A stretch of 64,000 nt of DNA from Naegleria gruberi (lineage: Eukaryota), in the NCBI GenBank assembly GCA_000004985.1, contig GG738873.1; one strand, given 5' to 3'. The stretch's first letter is position 1, and every line of letters begins with the position of its first letter. Positions 5,887 through 55,332 of this stretch are shown here, piece after piece. The position numbers and the translations under genes were made by a program. A model generated the notes under the pieces. That model was given only the letters and a program-made list of their open reading frames with translations, made no database searches and was not told where the DNA came from.

Positions 5887-6342
5887 GTTGCTTGTTTTTT
5901 TTGAATTGTTTCTCTTGAGATTTTTATTTTTAGAAATTCTATTTATTTATTGAGGAAGATTTTTTTGGAGTTTTGACATTTTTGTAAGTGGACATATAAG
6001 TGCGTATTAATATTTAATTGTGCGCATTTGTAAAATTAATTGAAAACAAGAATGATTCTGTCGTGGATTTCACAATAAATGAATGAGTGGTGTCATCAGG
6101 TTGGAATATATTGTTTACATTATTGATTAATGCATTTTCCAATTCATCATTCCTATGGCACAGTCTCAAGGTTAATATTAAGGTCATATTGAAAGGATGG
6201 ATGTAACCCTTAATAAGACCAAATACGACTGGGAACTCCAATTAGAAAAAATATTGGCAGGAAAAAATTACAGTGAAAATAGACTCCTAAAAAAATGCTC
6301 TGTTTTCAACAGGAGAAGGAATTTCCTCACAAAAAGGAGTGT

Positions 6343-9300: not shown

Positions 9301-11196
9301 CGATTTATTATGCAACAGATACTTCTGTTGTCAAGTTGACTCCAAGATGTAAGAATGGTTATGTGTTGGATGACCAATTTTCTGAGTGTATTCCAGTATG
9401 TTTCGGATATAATCAATTGGATGTGGAACAAGTTTGTTCTGGACATGGATTGTGTCTAGAGCCAGATAACTGTGGATGTTTTGACCATTACACGGGTAAT
9501 CAATGTGAAAATGCCAAATGTTTCGGTCTTGATGTTAATAATCCAAATATTTGTAATGGAAGAGGTCAATGTGTCTCAGTTGACACCTGTTCATGCTCCC
9601 AAGGCTATTCAGGAATTGACTGTTCCATTCCAGAATGTTTCGGAATCTCTGGAAACATGTCATGTAGTGGATCAGAAAGAGGTAGATGCATTTCACTCAA
9701 CATGTGTCACTGTAATTTGCCTCATTATTCTGGAAGAGCATGCGAGTTAGCAAACTGCTTTGGAATTCCACAAAATGATGCAAAAGTTTGCTCTGGAAAG
9801 GGAAGATGTGTCCGTCCTAACGAATGCAAGTGTGATACTGATTTTTATGACAAGGATTGTTCCAAGTTTGATAATACGAATTGGACAGTTGGAGTTGTTG
9901 TGGGAATTACAGGCGGTTTTGTTATTTTGTTGATGATTGTTGGAGTTGTGTTGATTGTAGTGTTGAGAATTTATAAGAAACAAAAGAAAATATTGGACAC
10001 TGACCTCGAATTGGATCGACAATTGTTGAGTTCTGAAGAAATCAATGGTTATTCTCGTGGTCATACTTCAAATTCAAGTAATAGTGTGGAGGAAGATTTT
10101 TATATCCCACTGAATCAATTAAATATGGACAAACCAATTAAGAGATTGGGAAGTGGTGGTATTGGAAGTGTATTCATGACAAAGTAAGTGTTAAATTTTG
10201 CCTAAATTCTAACTTTTTCATCAATCTTATTTTGAAATATTTCCAAAGATGGAATAATATCATTGTAGCGGTCAAAGTGTTTGATTTGAATAATGAAAAC
10301 ATTGGAATTGAAGATTTTATCAATGAGGCCTTATTACTCTCAAGACTTCGTCATCCAAATATTATTTCTTTTTATGGAGTTTCTTCATCTCCAACCAAAA
10401 GATACATTGCCATGGAGTGTATGGATGCAAGCTTGGAATCCTATATTCAGAAAATGCAAGCATTGCAGTTAAAGCTTCCATTCCGTACAAAAGTGAAAAT
10501 TATTTCAGATATTTGCAGAGGTATCATGTATCTTCACAATTTACAACCAAATTTTATTGTTCACAGAGATTTGAAACCTGCAAATATTTTACGTAAGTTT
10601 ATTTGATTTTTGACATGACTCTAATGTGAGTGAAATAGTTGATAAGGATGGCAATTGTAAAGTTTGTGATTTTGGTTTGGGAAGAGTTTTATCAAAAAAA
10701 ACACTTTCGAATATTACAGCACAGGTTAGTACATTCAAACTATTTCGAATGATTATTTAACTGTATATAGATTGGCACATGTGCATACATGAGCCCAGAA
10801 ATCTCAGGATTCTCTGGTAAGGATATTGATCGTTCACACGTTAAGGCAATTGATATCTTTAGTTTATCCATAATTTTCTATCAAATATTATTCGAAGTGA
10901 TGGATCCATACTCGAGTCAAGATTTGAGAGTGGTGGAAAAGATTGGACTTAAGGAACCAATTCATTATGAATCTTTTTATCATTTGCATAGAGCCATTTG
11001 TGAATTCAAAGTTCGACCTTCAATTCCATTCAATACTATTGAGTCGTGTGTGGAGTGGTGTAAAGTTTATGATTTGGAAGAGAATGCAACAATTTATTGG
11101 AAATTATGTGAAGATGTTATAAAGGAATCATGGAAAGAAGAAGCTTCCGAAAGACCTCCTATTGAAAAATTGGTAGAAATTGTTGATTCATTGTAA
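6343..11196 (+). CDS. Receptor-type Ser/Thr kinase: signal peptide, NHL-repeat beta-propeller, tenascin-type EGF repeats, TM segment and TKL-like kinase domain (5 exons)
   Basis: Exon structure: join(6343..7477, 7519..10183, 10249..10592, 10639..10724, 10771..11196). The 41-nt intron 7478..7518 (GTAAGT..ACAG) is required to fuse two long ORFs that sit in different frames. Introns 10184..10248 (GTAAGT), 10593..10638 (GTAAGT) and 10725..10770 (GTTAGT) restore kinase subdomains: GSGGIGSVFMTK|WNNIIVAVK, HRDLKPANIL|LDKDGNCKVCDFGLGRV, and ITAQ|IGTCAYMSPE. The signal peptide is MIMYLIFIIFLCQYLSS. NHL motifs (NxPxGIAV, IYIADTxNxRIRKI) are repeated. EGF units read CSGHGLCLEPDNCGCFDHYTGNQC and similar. 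The TM segment is VGVVVGITGGFVILLMIVGVVLIVVL. Confidence 0.8.
8458..8508 (+). other. Candidate in-frame 51-nt intron (or retained intron) inside the NHL region of the kinase gene
   Basis: The stretch gtaagttaaaaatttacatttttggaatattgacaaaattactaaaaatag has a perfect GTAAGT donor, an AG acceptor and an AT-rich body. Its length is a multiple of 3 with no stop, so the ORF track reads straight through it (GKLKIYIFGILTKLLKI). Confidence 0.35.
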
Positions 11197-11222
11197 ACTG
11201 TTATAAATAAATATTTAAAAAA

Positions 11223-13073
11223 ATGTCATCATTGATAGATTGTGACAACACCTCTCAACACTATGAATATCTCCCCGAACAGCAATTACACTCACTAAAA
11301 ATCACACCAAATCATGATCACCAACCTTCTACAGCAAGAATTTCACTTCCCGTGATGAATACTCATGATGAGAATATTCAAATTGAAATTAATTCTGATG
11401 ATTATAATATTGATGAGATTAGTGTCGTGTTCTCGGGAGGAAATTTATCCGTGAACAAATGTTACTTGAAGGTGAAGAAGAAGTGTAATGAAAGGTTTGT
11501 TGTGAAATTGAGAGAATTGGAATGTTGTGATTTGATAATTATGAATGAATCGAAAGGGAAGATTGTGTTGGAATATGATTGTTTAATATTAAATCGATTG
11601 GAAATTTCGAATAACCAACAAGAAGAAGAAACGGTAGTGGAAAATCATAGTGATGTTGATTTTTGTGAATTGATAATTGGAGACGGTTGTCAATTTGAGA
11701 ATTATGCCAACTTGCAAGTGTTGAATTTATTGAAGGGTGAAGGATTGGTTAGAAATTTGGGAATGATGTTTTTTGGAAAGGATGTAGAAATCGAGTTGAA
11801 TAATTTGGAAAGTGTTGGAATTGTCAAATTTCCACAATTAGAAAGTTTTGTAAAAGAATTTAAATTAATTAATGGCGAAAGTGAACAAAATTTTACAGAA
11901 CCATTGCCTAGAGGATACAATTATCTCAACAGAGTTGCCCTTTTGAAGGGACTGATAGGGAAGAATACTAAAACCAAAAAACCACAAATTCTCTCCGACT
12001 CAATTCTAGAATATTTAAAGGAAAATCCTGTTAATTCATCAGATGATTTATCTGAGAAGGTGAATGAATATCTATTGAGAGTAGGTGGTACTGAGTACGT
12101 CTCTACATGGGTCTCAACTATTGCCCCGAATATTAGAAAAACACCATCCGCACAAGGTGAAATAAGTGAAAAATTAGAACCATGGACCACTGTTAATGTC
12201 AAATCGATTTATTGTGGAGCTGGAGAGAATGAATTCTGGGCATGCTTGGGAGAAGAGGCCTTTGTATCAACAGATTTTTTGAAAATTAAGCCAAAAGTCA
12301 ATCATCTACTCTATCCTAACATGAAAGGGAGTGATTTACTATCAATCTATGGACCGAACGAACCATTCCTCAACGATAACTTGAAAAATCAATCCAATCA
12401 AGAAATCATTGTTGTAAATACTCCAATATTGGACAGTAATTTACAGTCTATTGGAGAAAAACTTGCTGGAGATTTGGTAACGGTTTATGAATTTACTGAA
12501 ATTAATGGAAAATCACTTGTAAAAATATCTCCTGATGAGGAACATTATATTGAATCGGATTATCTTTCCTCTGAGATGGATAAGAATCTCCTCAATAGGA
12601 ATATTCGAGCATTCCTCGAATTAATTGCCTTTTGTGAAGCTACCTATACATTCGGATACAATCGACTCGTGAATGGAACACCAACCACTGATCCATTCCA
12701 AACATGCTACTCACACGGCATTGTCAATATCACAAGTAATCTCAATACTCATCCGTTCATTCTCGTCTCCCTTAATGCCACTCTAAAATCAACAGCAGCT
12801 GGAAAATATCAATATTTGAATAGAACTTGGCATTCCCTCCCTAAAGAAATTCACAACAATCTCTTTACACCATATGGACAAGACAGAGGAGCCATTGCAC
12901 TTTTAATGAGACGTGAAAGTCTTCAAGCCATCAAACAAGGCAATATTGAACTGGCCCTTAATTTATGTAATAAGGAATGGGCAAGTTTTCCAAACTCACC
13001 ATATGGTCAACCCACTAAAAAGATGGAAGAATGCTTGAAAAAATATTCAGACTTTCTATCAAGATTACAATGA
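11223..13073 (+). CDS. Hypothetical 616-aa protein; the C-terminal ~170 aa resemble the C-terminal lobe of phage T4-type (GH24) lysozyme
   Basis: ATG 11223 is the first codon after an in-frame TAA at 11208, and the ORF ends at TGA 13071-13073. The C-terminus reads ...DRGAIALLMRRESLQAIKQGNIELALNLCNKEWASFPNSPYGQ. This compares with T4L ...[30 protein letters not shown]. An FCEATYTFGY segment is a possible catalytic-Glu region. The resemblance is weak and the N-terminal 400 aa are unassigned. The gene starts only 26 nt after the stop of the preceding kinase gene. Confidence 0.65.
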   Translation: MSSLIDCDNTSQHYEYLPEQQLHSLKITPNHDHQPSTARISLPVMNTHDENIQIEINSDDYNIDEISVVFSGGNLSVNKCYLKVKKKCNERFVVKLRELECCDLIIMNESKGKIVLEYDCLILNRLEISNNQQEEETVVENHSDVDFCELIIGDGCQFENYANLQVLNLLKGEGLVRNLGMMFFGKDVEIELNNLESVGIVKFPQLESFVKEFKLINGESEQNFTEPLPRGYNYLNRVALLKGLIGKNTKTKKPQILSDSILEYLKENPVNSSDDLSEKVNEYLLRVGGTEYVSTWVSTIAPNIRKTPSAQGEISEKLEPWTTVNVKSIYCGAGENEFWACLGEEAFVSTDFLKIKPKVNHLLYPNMKGSDLLSIYGPNEPFLNDNLKNQSNQEIIVVNTPILDSNLQSIGEKLAGDLVTVYEFTEINGKSLVKISPDEEHYIESDYLSSEMDKNLLNRNIRAFLELIAFCEATYTFGYNRLVNGTPTTDPFQTCYSHGIVNITSNLNTHPFILVSLNATLKSTAAGKYQYLNRTWHSLPKEIHNNLFTPYGQDRGAIALLMRRESLQAIKQGNIELALNLCNKEWASFPNSPYGQPTKKMEECLKKYSDFLSRLQ

Positions 13074-13168
13074 AAATCAAAAACTATTAAATCAAAATTT
13101 TTCAAACATCTTTTGCCCTCACATGGATGAGCACAAACGGAGAAGTAAAAATAAAACTTTAAAAAAAA

Positions 13169-13999
13169 ATGAGAATCTTGTCCGTACTTGCAAAATCCAA
13201 AACTTTAATTTCCTTCCACAACTCGGCAGCCAAATCATCGTCATCACTGCTTTTCGGAAAACAAATAAAGAAAAATGGAAATTTAATTAAGAATATTCAA
13301 TACAATTATCAACAGGAGAGAAATATATTTATTAGAACAAAGGAAACACCAAATCCTGCCAGTATTCAATTTTATCCTATGGAAGTGAAAGTGCTGGATG
13401 AGAAGGTGTATCCAGACATTTCTTCATTGGAAATTACTAATCCGTTGCAATCATATGTATCTCCTCTTGCCAAGACACTTTTTAAAATTGATGGAGTGAA
13501 GAGTGTATTTCTCTGTAGAGATTTTCTTACTGTAACAATTGATGATCCAACCAATTGGACCGATGTAAAACATGATGTATTCTCAAGTTTGAATAACTTT
13601 TTTGAGAGTGGAGGTATTGTATTAAATAGAGATGCTCAACCAAATCCTGATACAATGGTTCAGGAAGGAGATGATGAAATAATTATTGCAGTGAAGGAAA
13701 TTTTGGAAACTAGAATTCGTCCTATGGTTCAAGAAGATGGTGGTGATATTGTATTTTCGAGATTTGATGAAGAAACTGGTACTGTTTATGTCAAATTACA
13801 AGGAAGTTGTGCCAGTTGTCCAAGCTCTACAGAAACCTTAAAGAATGGTATTGAAAATATGCTCATGCATTATATTGCAGAAGTGAATGCTGTAGAACAA
13901 GAATTGGACGAATTAGATCAAATTAGTGAAGATCAATTGAAAAAGACTGAAGAAAAGCTTGCCAAAGAAAAGGAAATTATTGATCATTATACTAAATAA
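13169..13999 (+). CDS. NFU1: NFU1-type iron-sulfur cluster scaffold protein (mitochondrial)
   Basis: The 276-aa ORF has a presequence-like N-terminus. It carries an Nfu_N domain (TPNPASIQFYPMEVKVLDE...) and a NifU C-domain with a CxxC motif (YVKLQGSCASCPSSTETLKNGIENML). Confidence 0.9.
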   Translation: MRILSVLAKSKTLISFHNSAAKSSSSLLFGKQIKKNGNLIKNIQYNYQQERNIFIRTKETPNPASIQFYPMEVKVLDEKVYPDISSLEITNPLQSYVSPLAKTLFKIDGVKSVFLCRDFLTVTIDDPTNWTDVKHDVFSSLNNFFESGGIVLNRDAQPNPDTMVQEGDDEIIIAVKEILETRIRPMVQEDGGDIVFSRFDEETGTVYVKLQGSCASCPSSTETLKNGIENMLMHYIAEVNAVEQELDELDQISEDQLKKTEEKLAKEKEIIDHYTK

Positions 14000-15773: not shown

Positions 15774-16775
15774 TTTCCGATATTGATTAAACTTAGCCTG
15801 AAGTGAAGAAGATGTTAGCTAGTTTTTTTTTTTTAAATTTAAATGAAAGATGGTAAAGTATGGCGCTTAAAAACTACAATTCTCTAAAAATAGAGTCGAT
15901 TTAAGAGTGGAAAAACAAAAAATAGTGGAACTCAAGTTGATTGTTTTAGTTTACATTGAAAAACATTTTTAAGAGAAGGAGTTGAACTGTAACCTCATAA
16001 ATTCCCCACCAGATTGTAAACATTAAGAAGATGGAGTTGTACAACAAAAAATATAAATATTAATAATTGCTTTCAAGAGGTGAGATCTCTGAACAAGAAC
16101 AAACTTATGATGTTGTTCATAATAGTATATTTATTGAATTTTTAAATATCGATTTTATGCATTTTCATGGTTTTTAACAGAGAGCAGCAACAATTATGTT
16201 TACAATACTGTAGTTGAACGTTACAAATAAGGTGATAGAACAATCAACACCTGCCCTCTTTAATATATTAAACCTTCCTATTCGGAAATAGAATAAGCTC
16301 ATAAAATAAGAAAGCACACGGAAGCGTTTACAATAAGTGTTGGATGCCACCAATCGCTTATTTACAATGGTATAATCGTAGATATTATATTCATTATCAG
16401 ACATCTGTCCTAGTAATCAATTAAAATTGCTTGATGGAAAGCAATTACAAGCTATCAACATTGAAAATAATTGAATTTATCTCTTACGATTCTCGGCATT
16501 GCTAGGGCCCAAGTGTTAATTTATCTCTTTAAAGCTTGCCAAAACGGAATAATTTAACGCGTTGCATCTCTCACGAAAGAATATTCTTCGGACTCTTGTT
16601 TACACAACACCATAAAGAAACGAAAAATTTGAAAAAAACAACTAACGCATAACAGCTAATTTAACCAGTAGAGAGAGATTTAATTCCGCATTCAATATCA
16701 CAATAGCAAACAACAACAACTAAAGCACACTCATTAGACGACTCTGAACCCTCCATCACTATTAGCTATCACAAA

Positions 16776-18296: not shown

Positions 18297-18879
18297 ATGA
18301 CCCAATTGTTGGGTCATGTAATGGTGATCCACAATTTTTGTACAGTATATTGTTAACTAACTGAAATATTTCGGCCTTTTTCCATATGTTGTAAATAAAC
18401 ATGAGTATCCTTTTAATTATTATTAATTAGAACAATTTTTTTAATGCAATTGTAAATGTTTGGAAAGTGCATCATACCTTCTTAACAGTTCCAAAAACTT
18501 CTCTATTTCACCATTTATGGATCCTCAAATTTCTGCTTCCCACATCTAACAAATTGGTCTTTTTGCAATTCTATTGACAATGAAAGAAGTTGTTTCTAAA
18601 AGCTAGAAAATTATCTGGATATCTGAATATCTCGTTCATTTTGTATTGAATAAACTTCAATATTGTGCCATTCACATTGTCACAAATAACACTACTTCAA
18701 ACTTTCTTTGCAGTGCTCACTCATGTTCATAAACAACCGTTTGAAACTTGAACAAGTACATGAATGAGATTGCAAGTCCGATCTTTATATTGGCAACTGA
18801 ACTCCATGGAGAGTAGTATCTTGTGCCCGACCTTTCCTTGTGGAGAGACCAAGAACAAAGACCAATAACTTTCAAAAAA

Positions 18880-21800
18880 ATGGACAAATTGAAACTCAAC
18901 AACACTAATAGCTCAACATTCTTGCTACTATTGTTGTTTTTGCACTTGTTGTTTCTTGCTGCCCAACCAATTGTCCACGGTCAATCTTTATACCATGTAA
19001 AAACCATAGCAGGTAGTTATCCCTATGGTTACAATGGTGATGACATTGAACCTACCAAGGCAGAAATCACCCTACCTGATGGTCTTGCACTCTCTCCAAG
19101 CAACAATGGTGACATTTTCATAGTTGACAAGATAAATTGTCGAGTGAGACAAGTAGTGGCAAGTAGTGGTAAAATTAAAACAATTGTTGGTGTGGGTATT
19201 CCTGGTTCTGTCACGACAACTATAGCAACTATGGCTCGTTTGAATTATCCTAGTGCACTTGCTTTTCAGAACAGTGATGTCATGTACTTGTCTGATAATA
19301 GTCATGTTATTCGAAAGGTAGTATTATCTAGTAATTTGATTAGTACATATGCTGGTCAAGTTGGTGTACCAGGGAGTATTGGAGATGATGGAGTAGCTAT
19401 CAATGCACTGTTGAATACACCAAGTGGAATTGCCATCTCTCCTGTGAATAATAATTTATATATTGCAGATACCTCAAATAACAAAATTCGTGTGGTTTCG
19501 TATACGGATGGTATCATTAGAACATTTGCTGGAGGTGGAACAGATACATCCACTGTGGTACAGGATGCAACTAATGCACAGTTTAACTTCCCCACTTCCA
19601 TTGCAATCTCTAATAGTGGAGAAGTTTACATTGGCGATGACAAGATTAGAAAGGTGTTCAATAATGGCACCAGTGTACTTCTGTTCACTTCTTTTGGACT
19701 CTCTGGCCAGACTAATACAGTTTATGGAATGGCAGTATCTCCAATAACTGGTGCTCTCTATGTTACTGTTTCAGATAGAGTATACATGATTCAATCGAAT
19801 GGAGTTGCAACATTAATAGCTGGATCAGGAGCTGGCTATGCTGGAGACAATCAATTGGCATCCAATGCCATGTTCAGAGTCACAAGAGGCATTGCTATAT
19901 CCTCAAGTGGGGAGATTTTCATTTCTGATGGTGGAAATAACAGAGTTAGAAAGATTAACACCAACAATATCATCGCCACCGTAGCTGGAACAGGTTCCAA
20001 TCTTGCCTACAATGGTGATAATATTGAGGCAGTGAAGGCAAAACTCTTTGGCCCAGAATCGGTTGCTGTCGCTCCAAATAATGAGGTTATTGTGGCCGAC
20101 ACAAGAAATGATAGATTGAGAAAGATTTCACTTGGTGGAATAATCACAACCATTACTCCAAGTTATAGTTCACCCAGATCTCCTCTCGTGCCCAATGTAG
20201 GGGAGTACTATTTTGTTGATTCGTCAACTGTGAAATATCTCATATCTTCTAGTGGCATTGTAATAACTAAAGCTGGATCTGGAACTACTGGATACAATGC
20301 TGATAACATTCCCGCTACAAGTGCTCATTTAAATTTTCCAAAAGGAATTGCCAGATCCACAAATGGAGATTTGTTCATTACCGATTCTGGAAATCATCGA
20401 ATTAGAAAAGTGTTTTTAAATCAGACCATCATTACTGTAGCTGGTACTGGTACTTCTGCCTACAATGGAGATGGGCTATTAGCAACTAGTGCCAATATTA
20501 ATAATCCATATGGAATTGTACTGACCTCTAATAATGAAGTTATTTTTTCAGAGTATGAAGGCCATCGAGTGAGAAAAATTCTCAATGATGGAACCCTCAT
20601 TACCATTGCAGGAACTGGGGTGGATGGGTATAGTGGGGAGAATTTGAGCGGTTCTAATTCAATGTTGAGATATCCTGCTGGTCTTGCCATTTTATCCAAT
20701 GATGAACTATTGATTTCTGATTCCCAAAACCATGCCATTAGGAAATTATTTAAGAATGGAACTTTGATAACCATTGCTGGTACTGCACCACTGTATGGAT
20801 ACAATGGTGAGAATTTGCACCCTTTGGAAACTCAATTTTATGGACCAATGGGTGTAGCTCTATCTGCTGATGAATCTAAAATTTTCATTGCTGACACAAG
20901 TAATGGAAAGGTGAGAGCGATCTCTTTTGGTTGTGACCTACAGAATCAATGTAGTGGGCATGGAGATTGTGCAGTGAACAATTGTTCGTGTTATTCTGGT
21001 TGGAGAGGAAGTTCTGATTGCTCTCTCTTCTCATGTGAAACATTGAATGCCTGCTCTGGACTTGGTACATGTGTGAGTAATAATACATGCTCATGTACTA
21101 GTGGATGGAAGGGAAGCCTCGATTGTTCCCACTTCTCATGTGAAACATTGAACAATTGTTCAGGGCATGGTGCATGTGTAGGTCCCAATACATGTTCATG
21201 TGATTTGGGGTGGAAGGGAAGCCTCGATTGTTCTTTCTCATGTGAAAAATTGAATGCCTGCTCTGGACATGGTGTCTGTGTGAGCAATAATACGTGTGTT
21301 TGCGATTCTGGTTGGAAGGGAAGTCTGGATTGCAATCTCCCTTCCTGTGAAATGTTTAAAAATTGTTCAGGACATGGCTCTTGTTTGAGTAGTAATACAT
21401 GTTCGTGCTTGAGTGGATGGAAGGGAAGCCTAGATTGTTCCCTATTCTCTTGTGATGCTGTGAAAAATTGTAGTGGAAATGGAACATGTACATCAAGTAA
21501 TGGTTGTTCATGCCTGGAAGGATATGGTGGATTGAGTTGTGATAATAGAATTGTTCCTCCTACCTATGTCTCTCCACTTGCATCCAAGAATGGTCCAGTT
21601 ACTACTACAGGTAATTCTAACATTGGATTGATTGTTGGATTGGTTGTGGGTTTAACATTATTGGTATTGTTAATATTGCTTGCAATCATTGTTACCATCT
21701 GTCTCATTGTGAAATTAAAGAAGAAGAAAAGCAAACCACTGGTTACTAATGAAGAACCAATTGAAATGATAACAACCATTGATGAAAATGTTACTCAAAC

Positions 21801-22752
21801 AGCCAATAGTTCATTACTTACCTCAGATTTCCCAAGCGATACCTTTAACAATTCCTATTACCAGTTGAATTCTTCCAATACTAACACAAGTGCTACTTCT
21901 CCTCCTCAAAACACAGATCATTCTTTGCTCAAAGATAGATACAAGATTCAACAAGTTATTGGTCAAGGTGCATTTGGTAAATGTTATCTCTGTTTGGATT
22001 CTAAAAAGAATGACATGCCAGTTGCCATCAAGACTATTAGTTATGATCAAAGTAGACATTCTAAAATTATTGATGAATGTTCCAAAACACTTTCATACAG
22101 ACATGCAAATCTGGTTGAAGTATATGAATTCTTTGAAGCACAGATTATTCAATCTATTTGTATTGTAATGAAATTTTATGAAGGCGACTTGGAACATGCC
22201 TTGAAAGATTTGAAACAAGATGGAAAGATTGTCTCTGAGAAGATGATCATCTCCATCATGAAACAACTTGGAGATGGTTTGAACTATCTTCACCAAGAGA
22301 AACTAATTGTTCACAGAGATATCAAACCACGTAATATTTTCTACAGTAAATTGGACCGTGAATTGGATGAAATCCAAGTGGTTATTGGTGATTATGGAGA
22401 GGCAAAGGAAACTGGAGAAACTCAAAATTCAGTTGCAGGAACATTGCAATATATGGCGCCTGAGGTCTTTTCTAGAAAATACAGTTATAGTGCTGATATA
22501 TTTTCACTTGGAGTTTCACTCATTCAGGCCATGGCAAATGAATCCTTAGATTTAAACATTACAGCTCAATTATTATACGATAAGGAAGAAGTGGTGTTGG
22601 ACAGAACAATGGAACACTTGATATCAAGAGGTTACTCTGAGAAGCTTTGCAATTTTATTGTGACTATGGTCTCAAAGGAACCGAGTATGAGACCAACAAG
22701 TGCTGACATTCAAAATTTCACTCAAGATGATGGTGCCGAAAAGAGCATTTAA
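18880..22752 (+). CDS. Receptor-type Ser/Thr kinase 2: signal peptide, NHL-repeat propeller (many blades), 7 near-identical tenascin-type EGF repeats, TM segment, kinase domain
   Basis: The first ATG is at 18880 (MDKLKLNNTNSSTFLLLLLFLHLLFLAAQPIVHG). The track start at 18823 is GTG. The ORF is continuous to TAA 22750-22752. NHL motifs repeat (YNGD..A..A.LNxPxGIA...YIADTSNNKIRV). EGF units read CSGHGxCVSNNTCxCxSGWKGSLDC. The TM segment is IGLIVGLVVGLTLLVLLILLAIIVTICLIV. Kinase motifs are VIGQGAFGKCYL...VAIK, HRDIKPRNIF, IGDYGEAKE and GTLQYMAPE. Confidence 0.85.
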   Translation: MDKLKLNNTNSSTFLLLLLFLHLLFLAAQPIVHGQSLYHVKTIAGSYPYGYNGDDIEPTKAEITLPDGLALSPSNNGDIFIVDKINCRVRQVVASSGKIKTIVGVGIPGSVTTTIATMARLNYPSALAFQNSDVMYLSDNSHVIRKVVLSSNLISTYAGQVGVPGSIGDDGVAINALLNTPSGIAISPVNNNLYIADTSNNKIRVVSYTDGIIRTFAGGGTDTSTVVQDATNAQFNFPTSIAISNSGEVYIGDDKIRKVFNNGTSVLLFTSFGLSGQTNTVYGMAVSPITGALYVTVSDRVYMIQSNGVATLIAGSGAGYAGDNQLASNAMFRVTRGIAISSSGEIFISDGGNNRVRKINTNNIIATVAGTGSNLAYNGDNIEAVKAKLFGPESVAVAPNNEVIVADTRNDRLRKISLGGIITTITPSYSSPRSPLVPNVGEYYFVDSSTVKYLISSSGIVITKAGSGTTGYNADNIPATSAHLNFPKGIARSTNGDLFITDSGNHRIRKVFLNQTIITVAGTGTSAYNGDGLLATSANINNPYGIVLTSNNEVIFSEYEGHRVRKILNDGTLITIAGTGVDGYSGENLSGSNSMLRYPAGLAILSNDELLISDSQNHAIRKLFKNGTLITIAGTAPLYGYNGENLHPLETQFYGPMGVALSADESKIFIADTSNGKVRAISFGCDLQNQCSGHGDCAVNNCSCYSGWRGSSDCSLFSCETLNACSGLGTCVSNNTCSCTSGWKGSLDCSHFSCETLNNCSGHGACVGPNTCSCDLGWKGSLDCSFSCEKLNACSGHGVCVSNNTCVCDSGWKGSLDCNLPSCEMFKNCSGHGSCLSSNTCSCLSGWKGSLDCSLFSCDAVKNCSGNGTCTSSNGCSCLEGYGGLSCDNRIVPPTYVSPLASKNGPVTTTGNSNIGLIVGLVVGLTLLVLLILLAIIVTICLIVKLKKKKSKPLVTNEEPIEMITTIDENVTQTANSSLLTSDFPSDTFNNSYYQLNSSNTNTSATSPPQNTDHSLLKDRYKIQQVIGQGAFGKCYLCLDSKKNDMPVAIKTISYDQSRHSKIIDECSKTLSYRHANLVEVYEFFEAQIIQSICIVMKFYEGDLEHALKDLKQDGKIVSEKMIISIMKQLGDGLNYLHQEKLIVHRDIKPRNIFYSKLDRELDEIQVVIGDYGEAKETGETQNSVAGTLQYMAPEVFSRKYSYSADIFSLGVSLIQAMANESLDLNITAQLLYDKEEVVLDRTMEHLISRGYSEKLCNFIVTMVSKEPSMRPTSADIQNFTQDDGAEKSI
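20933..21543 (+). repeat. Tandem ~93-96-nt coding repeats (7 units) encoding tenascin-type EGF modules
   Basis: The units CETLNACSGLGTCVSNNTCSCTSGWKGSLDCSHFS, CETLNNCSGHGACVGPNTC..., CEKLNACSGHGVCVSNNTC... and the rest are highly similar at the DNA level. The antisense ORF track shows the same periodicity (RLPFHPKSHEHVL repeats). Confidence 0.7.
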
Positions 22753-22978
22753 TATTGTAATTAAATTATAAAATAATGGATCAAGTTTGTTTGGAATGTC
22801 ATTAAAATTTCTGTTAATTCCAGTAAATAATCAATTCCAAGAAACTCTCATCTGGTTTTGAGTGATATGTTTGTTGTTATTAAGGTGGATTTTAATGAAC
22901 TTTAGTTTCATTATTCTAATCTTGTGTACAAATTTCTTATTTTAGCACCCAACAATCATTCGGGTAAAATCAAAAAAA

Positions 22979-24058
22979 ATGAAACTAGATGAACTTCCCC
23001 TCGACCTTCTTTTCATCATTTGCGATTTTGCCTTCATTCGCAACAATCCCGATTCTCGCCTCGAATCAAACATTAAAACTTTATGTTCGATGGATTTGAT
23101 TTCATCAGTCCTGAGTAGAAATTACGAATTTAGGGGAAAATTGGAGGCAATTTGGAAAATTATTCTATTAAGTTATTTGGGTATTGTTTTGAATGATGAT
23201 GAGCAGGGAACTGTGAATGTTCTACGATCAGGATTTTCATTCCAAGTTGCTGATTTTGAAAATACATTGGAGAAGGCTAGTAAGAAAACATTTAACAGAT
23301 GTTTTGGGCTAATTAGAGAATGTGAGAAGAGGATTGGAAAGAGGAGATTTCAAGGTTTTGATATTGATACAAAGAGTGATAGAACTGTCTCAATTAGTGT
23401 TGTTGGAATGAGTGGGAGTGGAGTAAAATCCATGTTATATCGATATTTTGAAAATAAGTATATTGGAGATGATATTGGAATGATGGATGTGAATGATGAT
23501 TACAATAAGGAAATTAATATTGGAGACAGAGTGGTGAATTTTCAATTCAGGAATGGAAGTGCTTATCAAGATCGATATTTAAGGGATAGTTAGTTTCATA
23601 TCTGTTGTATGGTTAATTATTTAACAACATATTTAGCTGTTTTTCGATACTCTTCTGGGCATTTACTTGTTTTCAATGTTGATTCTGTTGAGGACTATGA
23701 AATAGAAAGCATGATTAGCACGGTTGGAAGAGTTCATGATGATGAGCTCATGCCCATTATTATATGTCTCAATAAGATTGATGTTATTGAGGGTCATCCA
23801 GAACTATACAAACTCAAACCAGAGTACCTGAAAGAAATTACTGAAAAATTATTCTATACCAATGTAGAAATCATTCCAACCAGTTCCAAGGACAACCTAA
23901 ATATTTCAACAGTTATGGAAAAGATTGCTAAGAAGGCCTACTTTTACATTGATGGATTTGATTGTCTTCGAATGAGAAAACATCTCCAACTGGTTGTTAA
24001 GAAGGATAAAAAGATTCTTAGACAATTTAATAAGAAGTCAAATTGTATCCTTTCTTAA
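22979..24058 (+). CDS. F-box-like N-terminus fused to a divergent Ras/Rab-like small GTPase domain (2 exons)
   Basis: Exon structure: join(22979..23588, 23637..24058). The intron 23589..23636 (GTTAGT...ATATTTAG, 48 nt) joins ...AYQDRYLRD|T|[15 protein letters not shown]. An F-box-like segment reads [14 protein letters not shown]. The GTPase motifs are degenerate. The P-loop GMSGSGVKS stands in for GxxxxGKS. The G3 box DTAGQ is replaced by RNGSAYQ. NKxD is conserved as LNKIDV. SAK is present as TSSKDN. Confidence 0.7.
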
Positions 24059-24107: not shown

Positions 24108-24180
24108 CGCCCACCGTGGGGGTCGAACCCACGACCACAAGGTTAAGAGCCTTGCGCTCTACCGACTGAGCTAGACGGGC
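24108..24180 (-). tRNA. tRNA-Lys (anticodon CUU)
   Basis: Reverse complement: GCCCGTCTAGCTCAGTCGGTAGAGCGCAAGGCTCTTAACCTTGTGGTCGTGGGTTCGACCCCCACGGTGGGCG. The cloverleaf is complete. The anticodon loop is CTCTTAA and the T-loop is GGTTCGA. It is near-identical in architecture to canonical eukaryotic tRNA-Lys-CTT. Confidence 0.9.
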
Positions 24181-33568: not shown

Positions 33569-34169
33569 TTTTTTGATCTTGTTGAACAGTTTACAATGAT
33601 GCTAATTGAGATGATGCTTCAAAATTATGGTGTTCATCACGAATATTAGTATTGTTTAAAATTCGAAAGATAATATTCGAATTTAGTTCATTCCGAAGTT
33701 TAGTTGTTATTATTGAAAATATAATTTATTTTCAATTCCAATCTGATGTTTCTCAATTCAATACCATATAATCCTCTCTCATTCTCGATATTAATAATAC
33801 TTTAAATCTGTGATGAATTTAATCATAATAATAATATTAAATCTCTTTAAAGTTTTCATCAATGAGAATGAATTATTCTTCATGATGTTCATCATGATCA
33901 TGTCCGTGATAGGAATTTGTAAATTCGCCCAAAGTTTTGAATACATTTGCAACGAGTTGGAAAAATTTAATAAAAATATCGCGCATTGCAGCTAACATTT
34001 TTTTTTCAAACCAAAAATCTCGGAAAATTGTAATATTTATTTCATTTAATTGCTTTACCAATTATCAATAATTATTTTGTGAATAATAACAGGCAAGTGA
34101 GAATGAGTTAGTTGGGTGCACACAACTAGAAGAAAACTTGGCCAAGTTCATTCACCTTCCAAAAAAAAA

Positions 34170-42977: not shown

Positions 42978-43405
42978 AGGATGGATTTCAAATATTGTGT
43001 TTTTGATTTTTTTTTGATTTGAAATTCTAATGGAAAGTGGAAGTCATTGATAATGTGTGAATTTTTGTAAAACCTAAAGTTTGGGAACAACAAAACTGTA
43101 GACGAAACTGTACTTTTGATATTCGAAATGCGGGTTGTATGGAGGAATTAAGGAATATTATTCGCATGAATCCTGAAATTATAACTGAGATTGTAATCAT
43201 TGAAAATTCACATTCAAATAGAAAACCATCCCACCAAAAACATGCCAAGATTTCCTTAGCACCATCAAAAATCAACATGAAATACCACAAACAAACTTGA
43301 TTATAATAAAGCACACACCATTACAATCATGCAGCTGTCAAACGTAATGACATTCGACATATCAGAAAGATCACTACTGGCAGGAAACCTCATCATTAAA
43401 AAAAA

Positions 43406-44178
43406 ATGTCCAAAACTTTAATCTCTCTCTTCCTCGTTATTGCTTTTGCTTTGGTTGTTGCATGCGTGGATGTTACTCCTGAAGAATTGAAAGCAATATT
43501 AACCAACGTCCCAAAGGCCAAGGTCACTAACTATGCTCAATACATGAATGATGCCATGGATGAAGGTGATATTGATACCTGTTGTGAAATTGCTGCTTTC
43601 ATTGCTCAAGTAGGTCATGAAAGTGGTGATTTGAATTGGTTTGTTGAATTTGCCTCTGGTTCTGCTTATGAAGGTAGAAAGGATTTGGGTAATACTGTCA
43701 AGGGTGATGGTGTTAGAGTAAGTGTTATCTTTTAACTGTTTGACTCTTTACACTCTATTCAATTATTATCAATATTATTAATGTATTATTAATCAATCGA
43801 ATAATAATATTATAGTATAAGGGTAGAGGTCCAATTCAAATTACTGGTCGTGCTAATTATCGTGCTGCTGGTAAGGCTTTGGGTGTTGATTTGGAAAATA
43901 ATCCACTCCTTGCTCAAGAACCAGTCATTGGTTTCAAGACTGCTGTTTGTAAGTTGTTTTTTCGCTAAATTTCAGTTTGTTGTAATATTAATATTAATAT
44001 CATTATTAATATCTCTCGTTTTAAATAGGGTTCTGGAATACTAGAAGTTTGAACAAGTATGCTGACTGTTCTCAAGCTAACTTTGATATCATTACCAAGA
44101 GAATCAATGGTGGTTTCAATGGTAAGGCTGACAGAGATGCCAAGTTTGCTAAGGCCAAGAAGGTTTTGAAGTGTTAAA
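43406..44178 (+). CDS. Secreted glycoside hydrolase family 19 (chitinase/lysozyme-like) protein, 3 exons
   Basis: Exon structure: join(43406..43717, 43816..43948, 44030..44178). The introns are 98 and 81 nt, GTAAGT...TAG, and about 80% A+T. The signal peptide is [19 protein letters not shown]. The GH19 signatures are [12 protein letters not shown] and, across intron 1, GDGVR|[15 protein letters not shown], then ...TAV|WFWNTR. The protein is 185 aa. Confidence 0.85.
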
Positions 44179-55118: not shown

Positions 55119-55332
55119 TTTTTTTTAATTGTTAAATGATGAACTTGATGAGGAAGAGACTGATTGGCGCGAGTTTGAACCGTAACGATAATTAATCTTG
55201 TTTGTAGATGAAAATATTATTAAGGAAGAGCAACAATATACCGTGGTAAAACTACCAACTAAAAGGCATAATGTTTGATGGAGACATTATTGAGAAGTTA
55301 ATGTTTGACAATGGAAAAAAGGAATATGTTTA

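What the first reader, a model, noticed from the sequence alone, without database searches (positions are those of the whole stretch)
11197..13073. Gene beginning 26 nt after the kinase stop codon, with a C-terminal T4-lysozyme-like lobe
Two points stand out. (1) The ATG at 11223 is the first possible start, since an in-frame TAA lies at 11208. It sits only 26 nt after the TAA of the upstream same-strand kinase gene. This is too short for an independent promoter and 5' UTR. It suggests polycistronic transcription or trans-splicing, a downstream start, or a promoter embedded in the kinase 3' end. (2) The last ~170 aa share a spaced pattern with the C-terminal lobe of GH24 phage lysozyme. Compare ...LQAIKQGNIELALNLCNKEWASFPNSPYGQ with ...[30 protein letters not shown]. 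The rest of the 616-aa protein has no recognisable family. Together with the GH19 gene this hints at a lysozyme-like fold repertoire.
Basis: partly seen in the sequence, partly recalled or inferred. Interest (0 to 1): 0.5.

Follow-up and report, generated by a model that had tools for sequence, protein, structure and literature searches.

The report
Phage-lambda-type lysozyme gene in Naegleria
This is an intact Naegleria gruberi gene, already annotated "muramidase", whose last ~160 residues form a complete phage-lambda-type (GH104) cell-wall-cleaving domain acquired from bacteria or phages; it is packed 26 bases behind a kinase gene, which looks like compact gene spacing, not an operon.

Summary
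The sequence facts hold. The kinase stop TAA is at 11194-11196, followed by a 26-nt spacer. An in-frame TAA lies at 11208, and an ATG at 11223 opens a 616-codon ORF. The window is Naegleria gruberi nuclear DNA. The gene is already on record as "muramidase" (XP_002676182.1 / EFC43438.1 / D2VI17), modelled from Met45.

The C-terminal similarity is real but was assigned to the wrong family. Residues ~455-612 are a whole phage-lambda R-type (GH104) domain, not a T4/GH24 lobe:
- 34% identity to lambda R over its full length.
- Catalytic Glu conserved (E472 = lambda E19).
- All 14 family-invariant residues kept.

All detected relatives are bacterial or phage, at 31-47% identity. Residues 1-455 have no homologue among 1.84 billion representative proteins. 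They are weakly predicted as a beta-helix plus a sub-threshold bacterial SH3 domain. There is no signal peptide.

ATG 11223 is probably the true start, given the AAAAAA-ATG context typical of gene starts here and coding-like first 44 codons. That implies a compact promoter overlapping the kinase 3' end. Polycistronic transcription or trans-splicing is unlikely in Heterolobosea.

Verdict: an ordinary, already annotated but uncharacterised, horizontally acquired lysin gene.

The parts
10789..11196 (+). Context: last exon of the upstream NHL-EGF-transmembrane kinase gene (kinase subdomains VIII-XI), with stop TAA at 11194-11196.
   Evidence: ORF list and translation. Pfam Pkinase hits on exons 10232-10606 and 10789-11196. 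The DFG micro-exon and two short introns lie between 10607 and 10788.
11197..11222 (+). 26-nt spacer ACTGTTATAAATAAATATTTAAAAAA between the kinase stop and ATG 11223. It contains an in-frame TAA (11208-11210), an A/T-rich TATAAATAAATA element and the A-run that precedes the ATG.
   Evidence: Direct reading.
11188..11202 (+). 15-mer TCATTGTAAACTGTT spanning the kinase stop codon. An identical copy lies at 33585-33599 (-), a similar distance upstream of another AAAAAA-ATG gene start. It is a candidate cis element (promoter or 3'-end signal); its function is not shown.
   Evidence: The core ATTGTAAAC occurs 5 times against 1.28 expected, and all five copies lie just upstream of an ORF start or in a divergent intergenic region.
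11223..13073 (+). Single-exon ORF of 616 codons plus TGA: the N. gruberi 'muramidase' gene (XP_002676182.1 / EFC43438.1 / D2VI17, modelled there from Met45).
   Evidence: Codon usage and GC content match neighbouring genes.
11223..11354 (+). Codons 1-44, absent from the RefSeq model. They are probably coding, with ATG 11223 as the start.
   Evidence: The AAAAAA-ATG context is shared with 8 other ORF-first ATGs in the window but with only 1.6% of all ATGs. GC is 0.39 against 0.21-0.29 in intergenic DNA. The codon score is positive only in frame 0. The chance of 44 stop-free codons is 0.04-0.07. Met45 at 11355 has the context cccgtgATG.
11286..11702 (+). Residues ~22-160: beta-rich region tentatively predicted as a small right-handed beta-helix. 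It has no sequence homologue.
12129..12284 (+). Residues 303-354: sub-threshold match to the bacterial SH3 domain (SH3_3), a possible cell-wall-binding module.
   Evidence: Pfam PF08239 scores 17.3-17.7 bits, E 0.004-0.006, over the full profile length (4-54/54), but below the 27-bit cut-off. AF2 does not fold this region (pLDDT <30).
12585..13058 (+). Residues ~455-612: complete GH104 (phage lambda R-type) lysozyme / lytic transglycosylase domain.
12636..12638 (+). GAA codon for Glu472, the predicted catalytic residue (equivalent to lambda lysozyme Glu19).
   Evidence: Invariant in the 6- and 121-sequence alignments. It aligns with E19 in the WSEGT motif of lambda R.

Best explanation
The ORF 11223-13073 is a genuine, intact, single-exon nuclear gene of Naegleria gruberi.

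Catalytic domain. The C-terminal ~160 residues are a complete phage-lambda-R-type (GH104) peptidoglycan-cleaving domain acquired by horizontal transfer from a bacterium or phage. It has since been adapted to host codon usage. Like lambda lysozyme, it most likely cleaves the MurNAc-beta-1,4-GlcNAc bond of bacterial peptidoglycan, using Glu472 as the single acid catalyst and probably releasing 1,6-anhydro-MurNAc ends. The likely role is to serve this bacterivorous amoeba in killing or digesting bacteria.

N-terminal region. The lineage-specific N-terminal ~450 residues are tentatively a beta-helix, a helical linker and an SH3b-like module. They would act as targeting or cell-wall-binding parts.

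Gene start and transcription. Translation most likely starts at ATG 11223. The gene would then be transcribed on its own from a very compact promoter that overlaps the last codons and stop codon of the upstream kinase gene. In that case the kinase 3' end and the muramidase 5' end share or overlap sequence.

Shown: ORF integrity, family, fold, conserved catalytic residue, bacterial/phage relatives, host-like composition, start-codon context. Inferred: enzymatic chemistry, biological role, start codon actually used, promoter position.
For: Identity and integration:
- 100% match to N. gruberi 'muramidase' on a 462-kb scaffold.
- The neighbours are intron-bearing eukaryotic genes: an NHL-EGF kinase, NFU1 and a PP2C.
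- GC, GC3 and codon score match the neighbours.

Family:
- Lambda lysozyme is the only strong PDB sequence match.
- 34% identity to lambda R residues 4-148, with E472 aligned to E19.
- PHROG endolysin family, E 4e-31.
- 14 invariant columns of a 121-member alignment are all kept: E472, H510, P511, S523, A525, A526, G527, Y529, Q530, Q553, W586, A587, S588, Q596.

Horizontal transfer:
- All relatives found are phage endolysins or bacterial proteins at 31-47% identity.
- In a neighbour-joining tree the domain sits on a long branch beside metagenomic prokaryotic proteins. One of these lies next to VgrG/PAAR/VipB genes.
- A 2012 CAZy survey found GH104 in 0 of 42 eukaryotes (PMC3541169).

Start codon:
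- A-run context.
- Coding-like first 44 codons.
- Stop-free run.

Monocistronic expectation: Heterolobosea gene-order statistics. The next gap downstream (13073 to 13169) is also only 95 nt.

Possible downstream pathway: an anhydro-MurNAc kinase is reported in Naegleria genomes (PMC9928731).
Against: - There is no signal peptide or transmembrane segment from either Met1 or Met45 (maximum 15-residue Kyte-Doolittle score in the first 60 windows is 0.05). Delivery to phagosomes, where prey peptidoglycan is found, is therefore unexplained. The GH19-like lysozyme gene in the same window does have a signal peptide.
- The RefSeq model starts at Met45.
- No transcript, EST or proteomic evidence could be consulted, so expression itself is not shown.
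- The near-invariant Gly after the catalytic Glu is Ala in this protein.
- No orthologue in other Naegleria species was seen. The gene may therefore be young or dispensable.
- The word-indexed searches even missed the protein itself, so the absence of eukaryotic relatives is weak evidence.
Confidence: 0.75

Rival explanations
1. Translation starts at Met45 (nt 11355), as in the RefSeq/JGI model. The region 11223-11354 would then be 5' UTR or promoter. The effective gap to the kinase would be 158 nt, and the '26 nt' problem would disappear.
For: The database model XP_002676182.1 has 572 aa and begins MNTHDEN. A TATA-like TATAAATA at 11203-11210 lies only 13-20 nt upstream of ATG 11223. At a canonical TATA-to-start-site distance, the transcription start would fall downstream of that ATG (inference).
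Against: - Met45 has the context cccgtgATG. ATG 11223 has the AAAAAA-ATG context seen at 9 ORF-first ATGs here but at only 1.6% of all ATGs.
- Codons 1-44 have coding-like GC (0.39) and a positive codon score only in frame 0.
- 44 stop-free codons have a chance probability of 0.04-0.07.
- The neighbouring NFU1 gene has a similar A/T-rich element 15-24 nt before an ATG that must be used, because it begins a presequence-like N-terminus. That spacing therefore does not exclude use of the first ATG.
Confidence: 0.22
2. The kinase and muramidase genes are co-transcribed as a bicistronic or polycistronic RNA. The RNA would be resolved by trans-splicing or translated by re-initiation, as in the related Euglenozoa.
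For: The two genes are on the same strand with only a 26-nt gap. Naegleria belongs to Discoba, together with the trans-splicing Euglenozoa (own knowledge).
Against: - Heterolobosea have about 2 genes per same-strand run and no long directional clusters. Their intergenic lengths are yeast-like and they have hundreds of transcription-factor motifs, all read as conventional monocistronic regulation.
- Gene orientation alternates along this window.
- Spliced-leader trans-splicing has not been reported in Heterolobosea (own knowledge).
- The spacer shows no polypyrimidine-AG acceptor.
Confidence: 0.04
3. The lambda-type domain is no longer used against bacterial peptidoglycan. It may be a decaying or neutral recent acquisition. 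Alternatively it may have been co-opted for a cytosolic or self-directed role, such as glycan binding or cyst-wall remodelling.
For: No signal peptide. No orthologue detected in other Naegleria or any eukaryote. The Gly after the catalytic Glu is replaced by Ala. Lambda lysozyme binds chito-oligosaccharides (PDB 3D3D title).
Against: - The ORF is intact for 616 codons with host-typical codon usage.
- All 14 invariant family residues, including the catalytic Glu, are retained despite a long branch. This argues for purifying selection on catalysis.
Confidence: 0.1
4. Bacterial or phage contamination, or an assembly chimera, and not an amoeba gene.
For: All detected relatives of the catalytic domain are prokaryotic or viral.
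Against: - The ORF lies 26 nt and 95 nt from intron-containing or typically eukaryotic genes on one continuous sequence.
- GC is 33-38%, and GC3 and codon score are as in the neighbours.
- The start context is typical of this genome.
- Three quarters of the protein has no prokaryotic homologue.
Confidence: 0.01

Closest known systems
Bacteriophage lambda endolysin R (PDB 1AM7, 3D3D), the founding member of CAZy family GH104, a lytic transglycosylase
   Different: Lambda R is a 158-aa single-domain phage protein released through a holin. Here the domain is the C-terminal quarter of a 616-aa eukaryotic protein with an orphan N-terminal region. It has a ~16-residue insertion between the catalytic helix and the HP motif, and the host has no holin system. 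The lytic-transglycosylase chemistry was not tested.
Cyanophage A-1(L) baseplate hub (PDB 8KEA) and other tail- or baseplate-associated lambda-type lysin domains
   Different: That is a virion structural protein. There is no similarity outside the lysin domain.
Bacterial GH104 / COG4678 'muramidase (phage lysozyme)' proteins, including one (P0043) adjacent to VgrG, PAAR and VipB type VI secretion genes
   Same: These are the closest sequences found (up to 43-47% identity). They are the nearest neighbours in a neighbour-joining tree.
   Different: They are 150-350 aa prokaryotic proteins. Their N-terminal extensions are unrelated to the Naegleria N-terminus. No donor lineage can be identified.
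   Same: Same broad lysozyme-like superfamily, with an N-terminal catalytic Glu on a helix (established knowledge).
Naegleria GH19/COG3179-type 'lysozymes' (pangenome orthogroup OG0000047), one of which is in this window at ~43403
   Same: Also phage-endolysin-like and also assigned to bacterial digestion in the amoeba.
   Different: A different family and fold subtype. They are conserved across the genus, present in multiple copies and carry a signal peptide. The GH104 gene has no signal peptide and no detected orthologue.
Horizontally acquired antibacterial genes of eukaryotes, such as GH25 muramidases (Metcalf et al. 2014) and 'dae' amidases derived from type VI effectors (Chou et al. 2015).
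   Same: The same evolutionary pattern: a prokaryotic or phage cell-wall-degrading domain fixed in a eukaryotic genome.
   Different: Different enzyme family. No functional data exist for this gene.

Membership tests
GH104 (phage lambda lysozyme / lytic transglycosylase family) | Significant sequence similarity to lambda R across the whole catalytic domain | tested here: met
   phmmer to 1AM7/3D3D gives E 9e-19. BLASTP to lambda R gives 34% identity, E 3e-28, over residues 4-148 of 158. A profile search returns proteins that NCBI names 'glycoside hydrolase family 104 protein'.
GH104 (phage lambda lysozyme / lytic transglycosylase family) | Catalytic glutamate at the end of the first helix (lambda Glu19) | tested here: met
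   E472 is invariant in 121 sequences and aligns with lambda E19.
GH104 (phage lambda lysozyme / lytic transglycosylase family) | Lambda-lysozyme three-dimensional fold | tested here: met
GH104 (phage lambda lysozyme / lytic transglycosylase family) | Lytic transglycosylase chemistry (1,6-anhydro-MurNAc product, not hydrolysis) | not testable with these tools
   Needs enzyme assays with muropeptide LC-MS.
GH24 (T4 lysozyme family) | Sequence membership (Pfam PF00959 or similarity to T4L) | tested here: not met
   No Pfam hit for the domain or the full protein. No T4L chain among PDB sequence matches at E<=10.
GH24 (T4 lysozyme family) | T4L as closest structural neighbour | tested here: not met
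GH24 (T4 lysozyme family) | Glu11-Asp20-Thr26 catalytic arrangement | not tested
   Only the Glu equivalent was examined. No residue-level superposition on T4L was made.
Bacterial SH3 domain (Pfam SH3_3, PF08239) | Score above the Pfam gathering threshold (27 bits) | tested here: not met
   17.3-17.7 bits, E 0.004-0.006, residues 303-354, over the full profile length. A second look-alike segment (395-448) gives no hit. AF2 leaves the region unfolded.
Right-handed beta-helix (DUF2807/GIN-like adhesin fold) | Confident beta-helix structure or a significant profile match | tested here: inconclusive
Polycistronic / spliced-leader transcription unit (Euglenozoa type) | Long same-strand gene arrays without individual promoters | tested here: not met
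   Gene orientation alternates along the window. Heterolobosea average about 2 genes per directon.
Polycistronic / spliced-leader transcription unit (Euglenozoa type) | Transcripts spanning both genes, or a spliced leader on the mRNA | not testable with these tools
Horizontally transferred prokaryotic gene fixed in a eukaryotic genome | Relatives are prokaryotic or viral only, and the gene is physically and compositionally integrated in host DNA | tested here: met
   Relatives. Integration. Caveat: the word-indexed searches can miss eukaryotic homologues, since they missed the query's own database entry. The tree is neighbour-joining without support values.

The most novel reading that the evidence does not exclude
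Naegleria gruberi keeps a lambda-type lytic transglycosylase that lacks a signal peptide and therefore acts in the cytosol. There it could serve as an intracellular anti-bacterial effector against bacteria that escape the phagosome or live as endosymbionts. Alternatively it could be the entry enzyme of a horizontally assembled peptidoglycan catabolic route, in which its 1,6-anhydro-MurNAc products feed the anhydro-MurNAc kinase reported in Naegleria genomes. The orphan beta-helix/SH3b-like N-terminus would be a new targeting module. In addition, the exact 15-mer TCATTGTAAACTGTT that spans the kinase stop codon would be a core promoter element. One sequence would then serve as both the coding end of one gene and the promoter of the next.
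Probability: 0.12. Interest if true: 0.55.

Novelty: new member of a known kind. Interest (0 to 1): 0.27.

Why it matters
If the enzyme is active, it is a eukaryotic member of a peptidoglycan-cleaving family (GH104) otherwise known from phages and bacteria. That would add a case to the short list of antibacterial genes that eukaryotes have taken from their prey or from phages. The missing signal peptide raises a concrete, testable question about where an amoeba deploys such an enzyme.

The 26-nt spacing is a useful annotation lesson, not a new mechanism. In this compact genome the first ATG with an A-run context is probably the real start, so the RefSeq model may be 44 residues short. Promoters must also overlap neighbouring coding ends.

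Neither point changes current understanding. The gene is already labelled 'muramidase' in public databases.

Tried and rejected
- Pfam and NCBIfam give no hit for the catalytic domain, even for its bacterial homologues. Family assignment therefore rests on PDB, PHROG and BLAST evidence.
- An exhaustive HMMER search with residues 1-455 found only the protein itself. Local phmmer of the N-terminus against the 120 homologues, and a self-BLAST for internal repeats, found nothing.
- Word-indexed searches with the full protein or the C-terminal domain returned few hits. They did not return the protein's own entry for C-terminal queries. I therefore do not treat 'no eukaryotic homologue' as established.
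- The look-up of encoding contigs had no record for P0001, so the annotated gene models of the scaffold could not be inspected.
- TGTAA as a polyadenylation signal overlapping the kinase stop: it occurs within 45 nt after the stop in 6 of 21 genes, against about 3.9 expected from intergenic composition. This is not significant.
- The 15-mer with up to 3 mismatches is not enriched: 8 matches against 6.7 expected. Only the two exact copies and the 9-mer core stand out.
- Literature: no paper in the library mentions the accessions or combines Naegleria with lytic transglycosylase. The 2010 genome paper is not held. No source giving N. gruberi UTR or intergenic length distributions was found. The pangenome supplement is truncated and does not show the gene's orthogroup.
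- Comparing the kinase's last exon with the paralogous kinase at 18880-22752 gave no significant alignment. The kinase end was instead verified from subdomain motifs.
Full report
**What is in the sequence**

The window is AT-rich (GC 0.32-0.39) and eukaryotic. The upstream same-strand gene encodes an NHL-repeat / EGF / transmembrane protein kinase. It is split by short GT..AG introns, and a 30-codon micro-exon carries the DFG motif. Its last exon holds kinase subdomains VIII-XI and ends with TAA at 11194-11196.

A 26-nt spacer follows (ACTGTTATAAATAAATATTTAAAAAA). It contains an in-frame TAA at 11208-11210. An ATG at 11223 then opens an uninterrupted 616-codon ORF ending at 13073. The next gene, a mitochondrial-type NFU1, starts only 95 nt later at 13169.

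**Identity**

The ORF is 100% identical to 'muramidase [Naegleria gruberi]' (XP_002676182.1, EFC43438.1, UniProt D2VI17), a 572-aa model on a 462-kb scaffold. That model begins at Met45 of the ORF. The lysozyme nature of the gene is therefore already recorded by automatic annotation. No paper in the searchable library mentions these accessions or combines Naegleria with lytic transglycosylases. The Naegleria pangenome study lists as 'lysozymes' only a GH19/COG3179-type orthogroup and one other orthogroup.

**The C-terminal domain**

Pfam and NCBIfam do not recognise it. Other evidence is clear:
- phmmer against all PDB sequences finds phage lambda lysozyme (1AM7, 3D3D) at E 2e-17 to 9e-19. No T4 lysozyme chain appears even at E<=10.
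- PHROG_90 (endolysin) matches residues 444-609 at 3.9e-31.
- 634 phage genomes carry a lambda-type endolysin that aligns at 34-37% identity over about 90% of the domain.
- Against lambda R itself, identity is 34% over residues 4-148 of 158. Glu472, in RAFLELIAFCEAT, aligns with the catalytic Glu19 in KAFLDMLAWSEGT.
- In a 121-sequence alignment, 14 columns are invariant and the Naegleria protein keeps all of them: E472, H510, P511, S523, A525, A526, G527, Y529, Q530, Q553, W586, A587, S588, Q596. Its one notable departure is Ala for the nearly invariant Gly after the Glu.
- An AlphaFold2 model built on that alignment has pLDDT above 90 across residues 450-616, apart from a lineage-specific insertion near 490-500.
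- Foldseek puts 3D3D and 1AM7 first, with target-normalised TM 0.81-0.82.
- T4 lysozyme is not among the listed matches.

The family, however, is lambda/GH104, and the whole catalytic domain is present.

**The rest of the protein**

Residues 1-455 have no detectable homologue in 1.84 billion representative proteins other than the protein itself. They are not related to the N-terminal extensions of bacterial homologues and contain no detectable internal repeat.

Two weak leads exist:
- A full-length but sub-threshold match to the bacterial SH3 domain at residues 303-354 (17.3-17.7 bits against a 27-bit cut-off).

Both folds are typical of cell-surface-binding modules in phage and bacterial lysins, but neither is established here. 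There is no signal peptide or transmembrane segment from either candidate start.

**Origin**

Every relative found is from phages, bacteria or prokaryote-like metagenomic contigs, at 31-47% identity. They include Betaproteobacteria, Chitinophagales, Chloroflexota and Saccharimonadales. In a neighbour-joining tree the Naegleria domain is a long branch (0.31 against a median of 0.12) next to three metagenomic proteins. One of these lies beside VgrG, PAAR and VipB genes of a type VI secretion cluster.

The gene is nevertheless fully integrated. GC, GC3 and codon score are those of its neighbours, and it is flanked at 26 and 95 nt by eukaryotic genes. The best reading is horizontal acquisition followed by amelioration and fusion to, or invention of, a lineage-specific N-terminus. 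The donor cannot be named.

Caveat: the word-indexed protein searches failed to return the protein's own entry for C-terminal queries. The absence of other eukaryotic homologues is therefore not proven.

**The 26-nt gap and the start codon**

Three observations favour ATG 11223 over the Met45 used by RefSeq:
1. It is preceded by AAAAAA. At least five A's in positions -6 to -1 occur at 1.6% of all ATGs in the window, but at nine first-ATGs of long ORFs. These include genes whose first ATG must be used, such as NFU1 and the two receptor kinases with signal peptides. Met45 has the context cccgtgATG.
2. Codons 1-44 have GC 0.39, against 0.21-0.29 in intergenic DNA. Their codon-usage score is positive only in frame 0.
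3. Forty-four stop-free codons have a chance probability of 0.04-0.07.

None of these is decisive. I put ATG 11223 at about 0.7-0.75.

If that start is right, the 5' UTR is either shorter than 26 nt or begins inside the kinase coding region. The promoter must then overlap the kinase 3' end. Polycistronic transcription is unlikely. A 59-species Discoba analysis finds that Heterolobosea have about 2 genes per same-strand run, no long directional clusters, and abundant transcription-factor motifs. Gene orientation also alternates in this window.

The neighbouring 95-nt gap shows that very tight packing is local practice and not peculiar to this gene pair. I could not obtain genome-wide intergenic or UTR statistics.

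**A possible cis element**

The 15-mer TCATTGTAAACTGTT spans the kinase stop codon at 11188-11202. It recurs exactly once more, at 33585-33599 on the minus strand. That copy lies in a divergent intergenic region, 16 nt upstream of the AAAAAA-ATG start of an unrelated F-box-like gene. The copy near the muramidase lies 20 nt upstream of its start.

The 9-mer core ATTGTAAAC occurs 5 times against 1.28 expected, and none of 100 shuffles reached 5. All five copies lie just upstream of an ORF start or in a divergent intergenic region, and three cluster in 15774-16775. An alternative reading, TGTAA as a poly(A) signal, is not statistically supported.

**Mechanism proposed**

By homology with lambda R, the domain should bind the glycan strand of peptidoglycan. 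It should cleave the MurNAc-(beta-1,4)-GlcNAc bond with Glu472 as the acid catalyst, probably forming 1,6-anhydro-MurNAc. This is established for lambda lysozyme (own knowledge) and inferred here.

N. gruberi is a bacterivore, and its genus encodes an anhydro-MurNAc kinase. A role in killing or digesting bacteria is therefore the natural reading. The missing signal peptide is the main unexplained point. It leaves open a cytosolic role, unconventional delivery, or a gene of marginal function.

**Verdict**

The object is a horizontally acquired GH104 lysin gene that is already annotated but uncharacterised. It has an orphan N-terminus and is tightly packed behind a kinase gene.

It is a new eukaryotic member of a known kind of enzyme. 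In a 2012 CAZy survey, GH104 was found in 0 of 42 eukaryotes. It is not a new kind of system. Interest is modest (0.27).

Noticed in passing
window 43403-43732 (+), continuing downstream through introns: First exon of a GH19/COG3179-type phage-endolysin-like gene with a clear N-terminal signal peptide ([19 protein letters not shown]...). It matches mycobacteriophage Endolysin A-type structures at E 3e-13 to 9e-9 and GH19 enzymes weakly. It belongs to the same family as the Naegleria pangenome core 'Lysozyme' orthogroup OG0000047 (N. gruberi EFC40266, EFC41873, EFC43444, EFC45872).
   Followed up: partly
window 11188-11202 (+) and 33585-33599 (-); also 16013, 16198, 16326: The exact 15-mer TCATTGTAAACTGTT occurs twice, each copy 16-20 nt upstream of an AAAAAA-ATG gene start. 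Its 9-mer core ATTGTAAAC occurs 5 times against 1.28 expected, always just upstream of an ORF start or in a divergent intergenic region, with three copies clustered in the divergent intergenic region 15774-16775. It is a possible cis-regulatory motif.
   Followed up: partly
window-wide, e.g. 657-662, 6289-6294, 13163-13168, 18874-18879, 22973-22978, 34164-34169, 33569-33574 (-), 55119-55124 (-): A run of at least five A's immediately before the ATG marks many probable gene starts. It occurs at 9 ORF-first ATGs but at only 1.6% of all ATGs. This is a useful start-codon signature for annotating this genome.
   Followed up: partly
window 10607-10788 (+): The kinase gene has a 30-codon micro-exon (IVDKDGNCKVCDFGLGRVLSKKTLSNITAQ) carrying the DFG motif. 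It lies between two very short introns (GTAAGT... and GTTAGT...TAG).
   Followed up: no
window 18880-22752 (+): A second, intronless paralogue of the NHL-repeat / teneurin-like EGF / transmembrane protein kinase family (1290 aa) lies 7.7 kb downstream of the first.
   Followed up: no
window 24108-24180 (-): A tRNA-Lys (CTT) gene lies 50 nt beyond the stop at 24058 of a plus-strand ORF.
   Followed up: yes
locus L082 30-8644 (metagenomic contig ERZ4224321 NODE_9886): One of the nearest relatives of the Naegleria domain (P0043, 204 aa) lies directly upstream of VgrG, PAAR and VipB genes. This suggests that some GH104-like proteins are type VI secretion effectors.
   Followed up: no
window 13074-13168: Only 95 nt separate the muramidase stop from the NFU1 start. 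The muramidase 3' end and the NFU1 promoter and 5' UTR must therefore also be extremely compact or overlapping.
   Followed up: no
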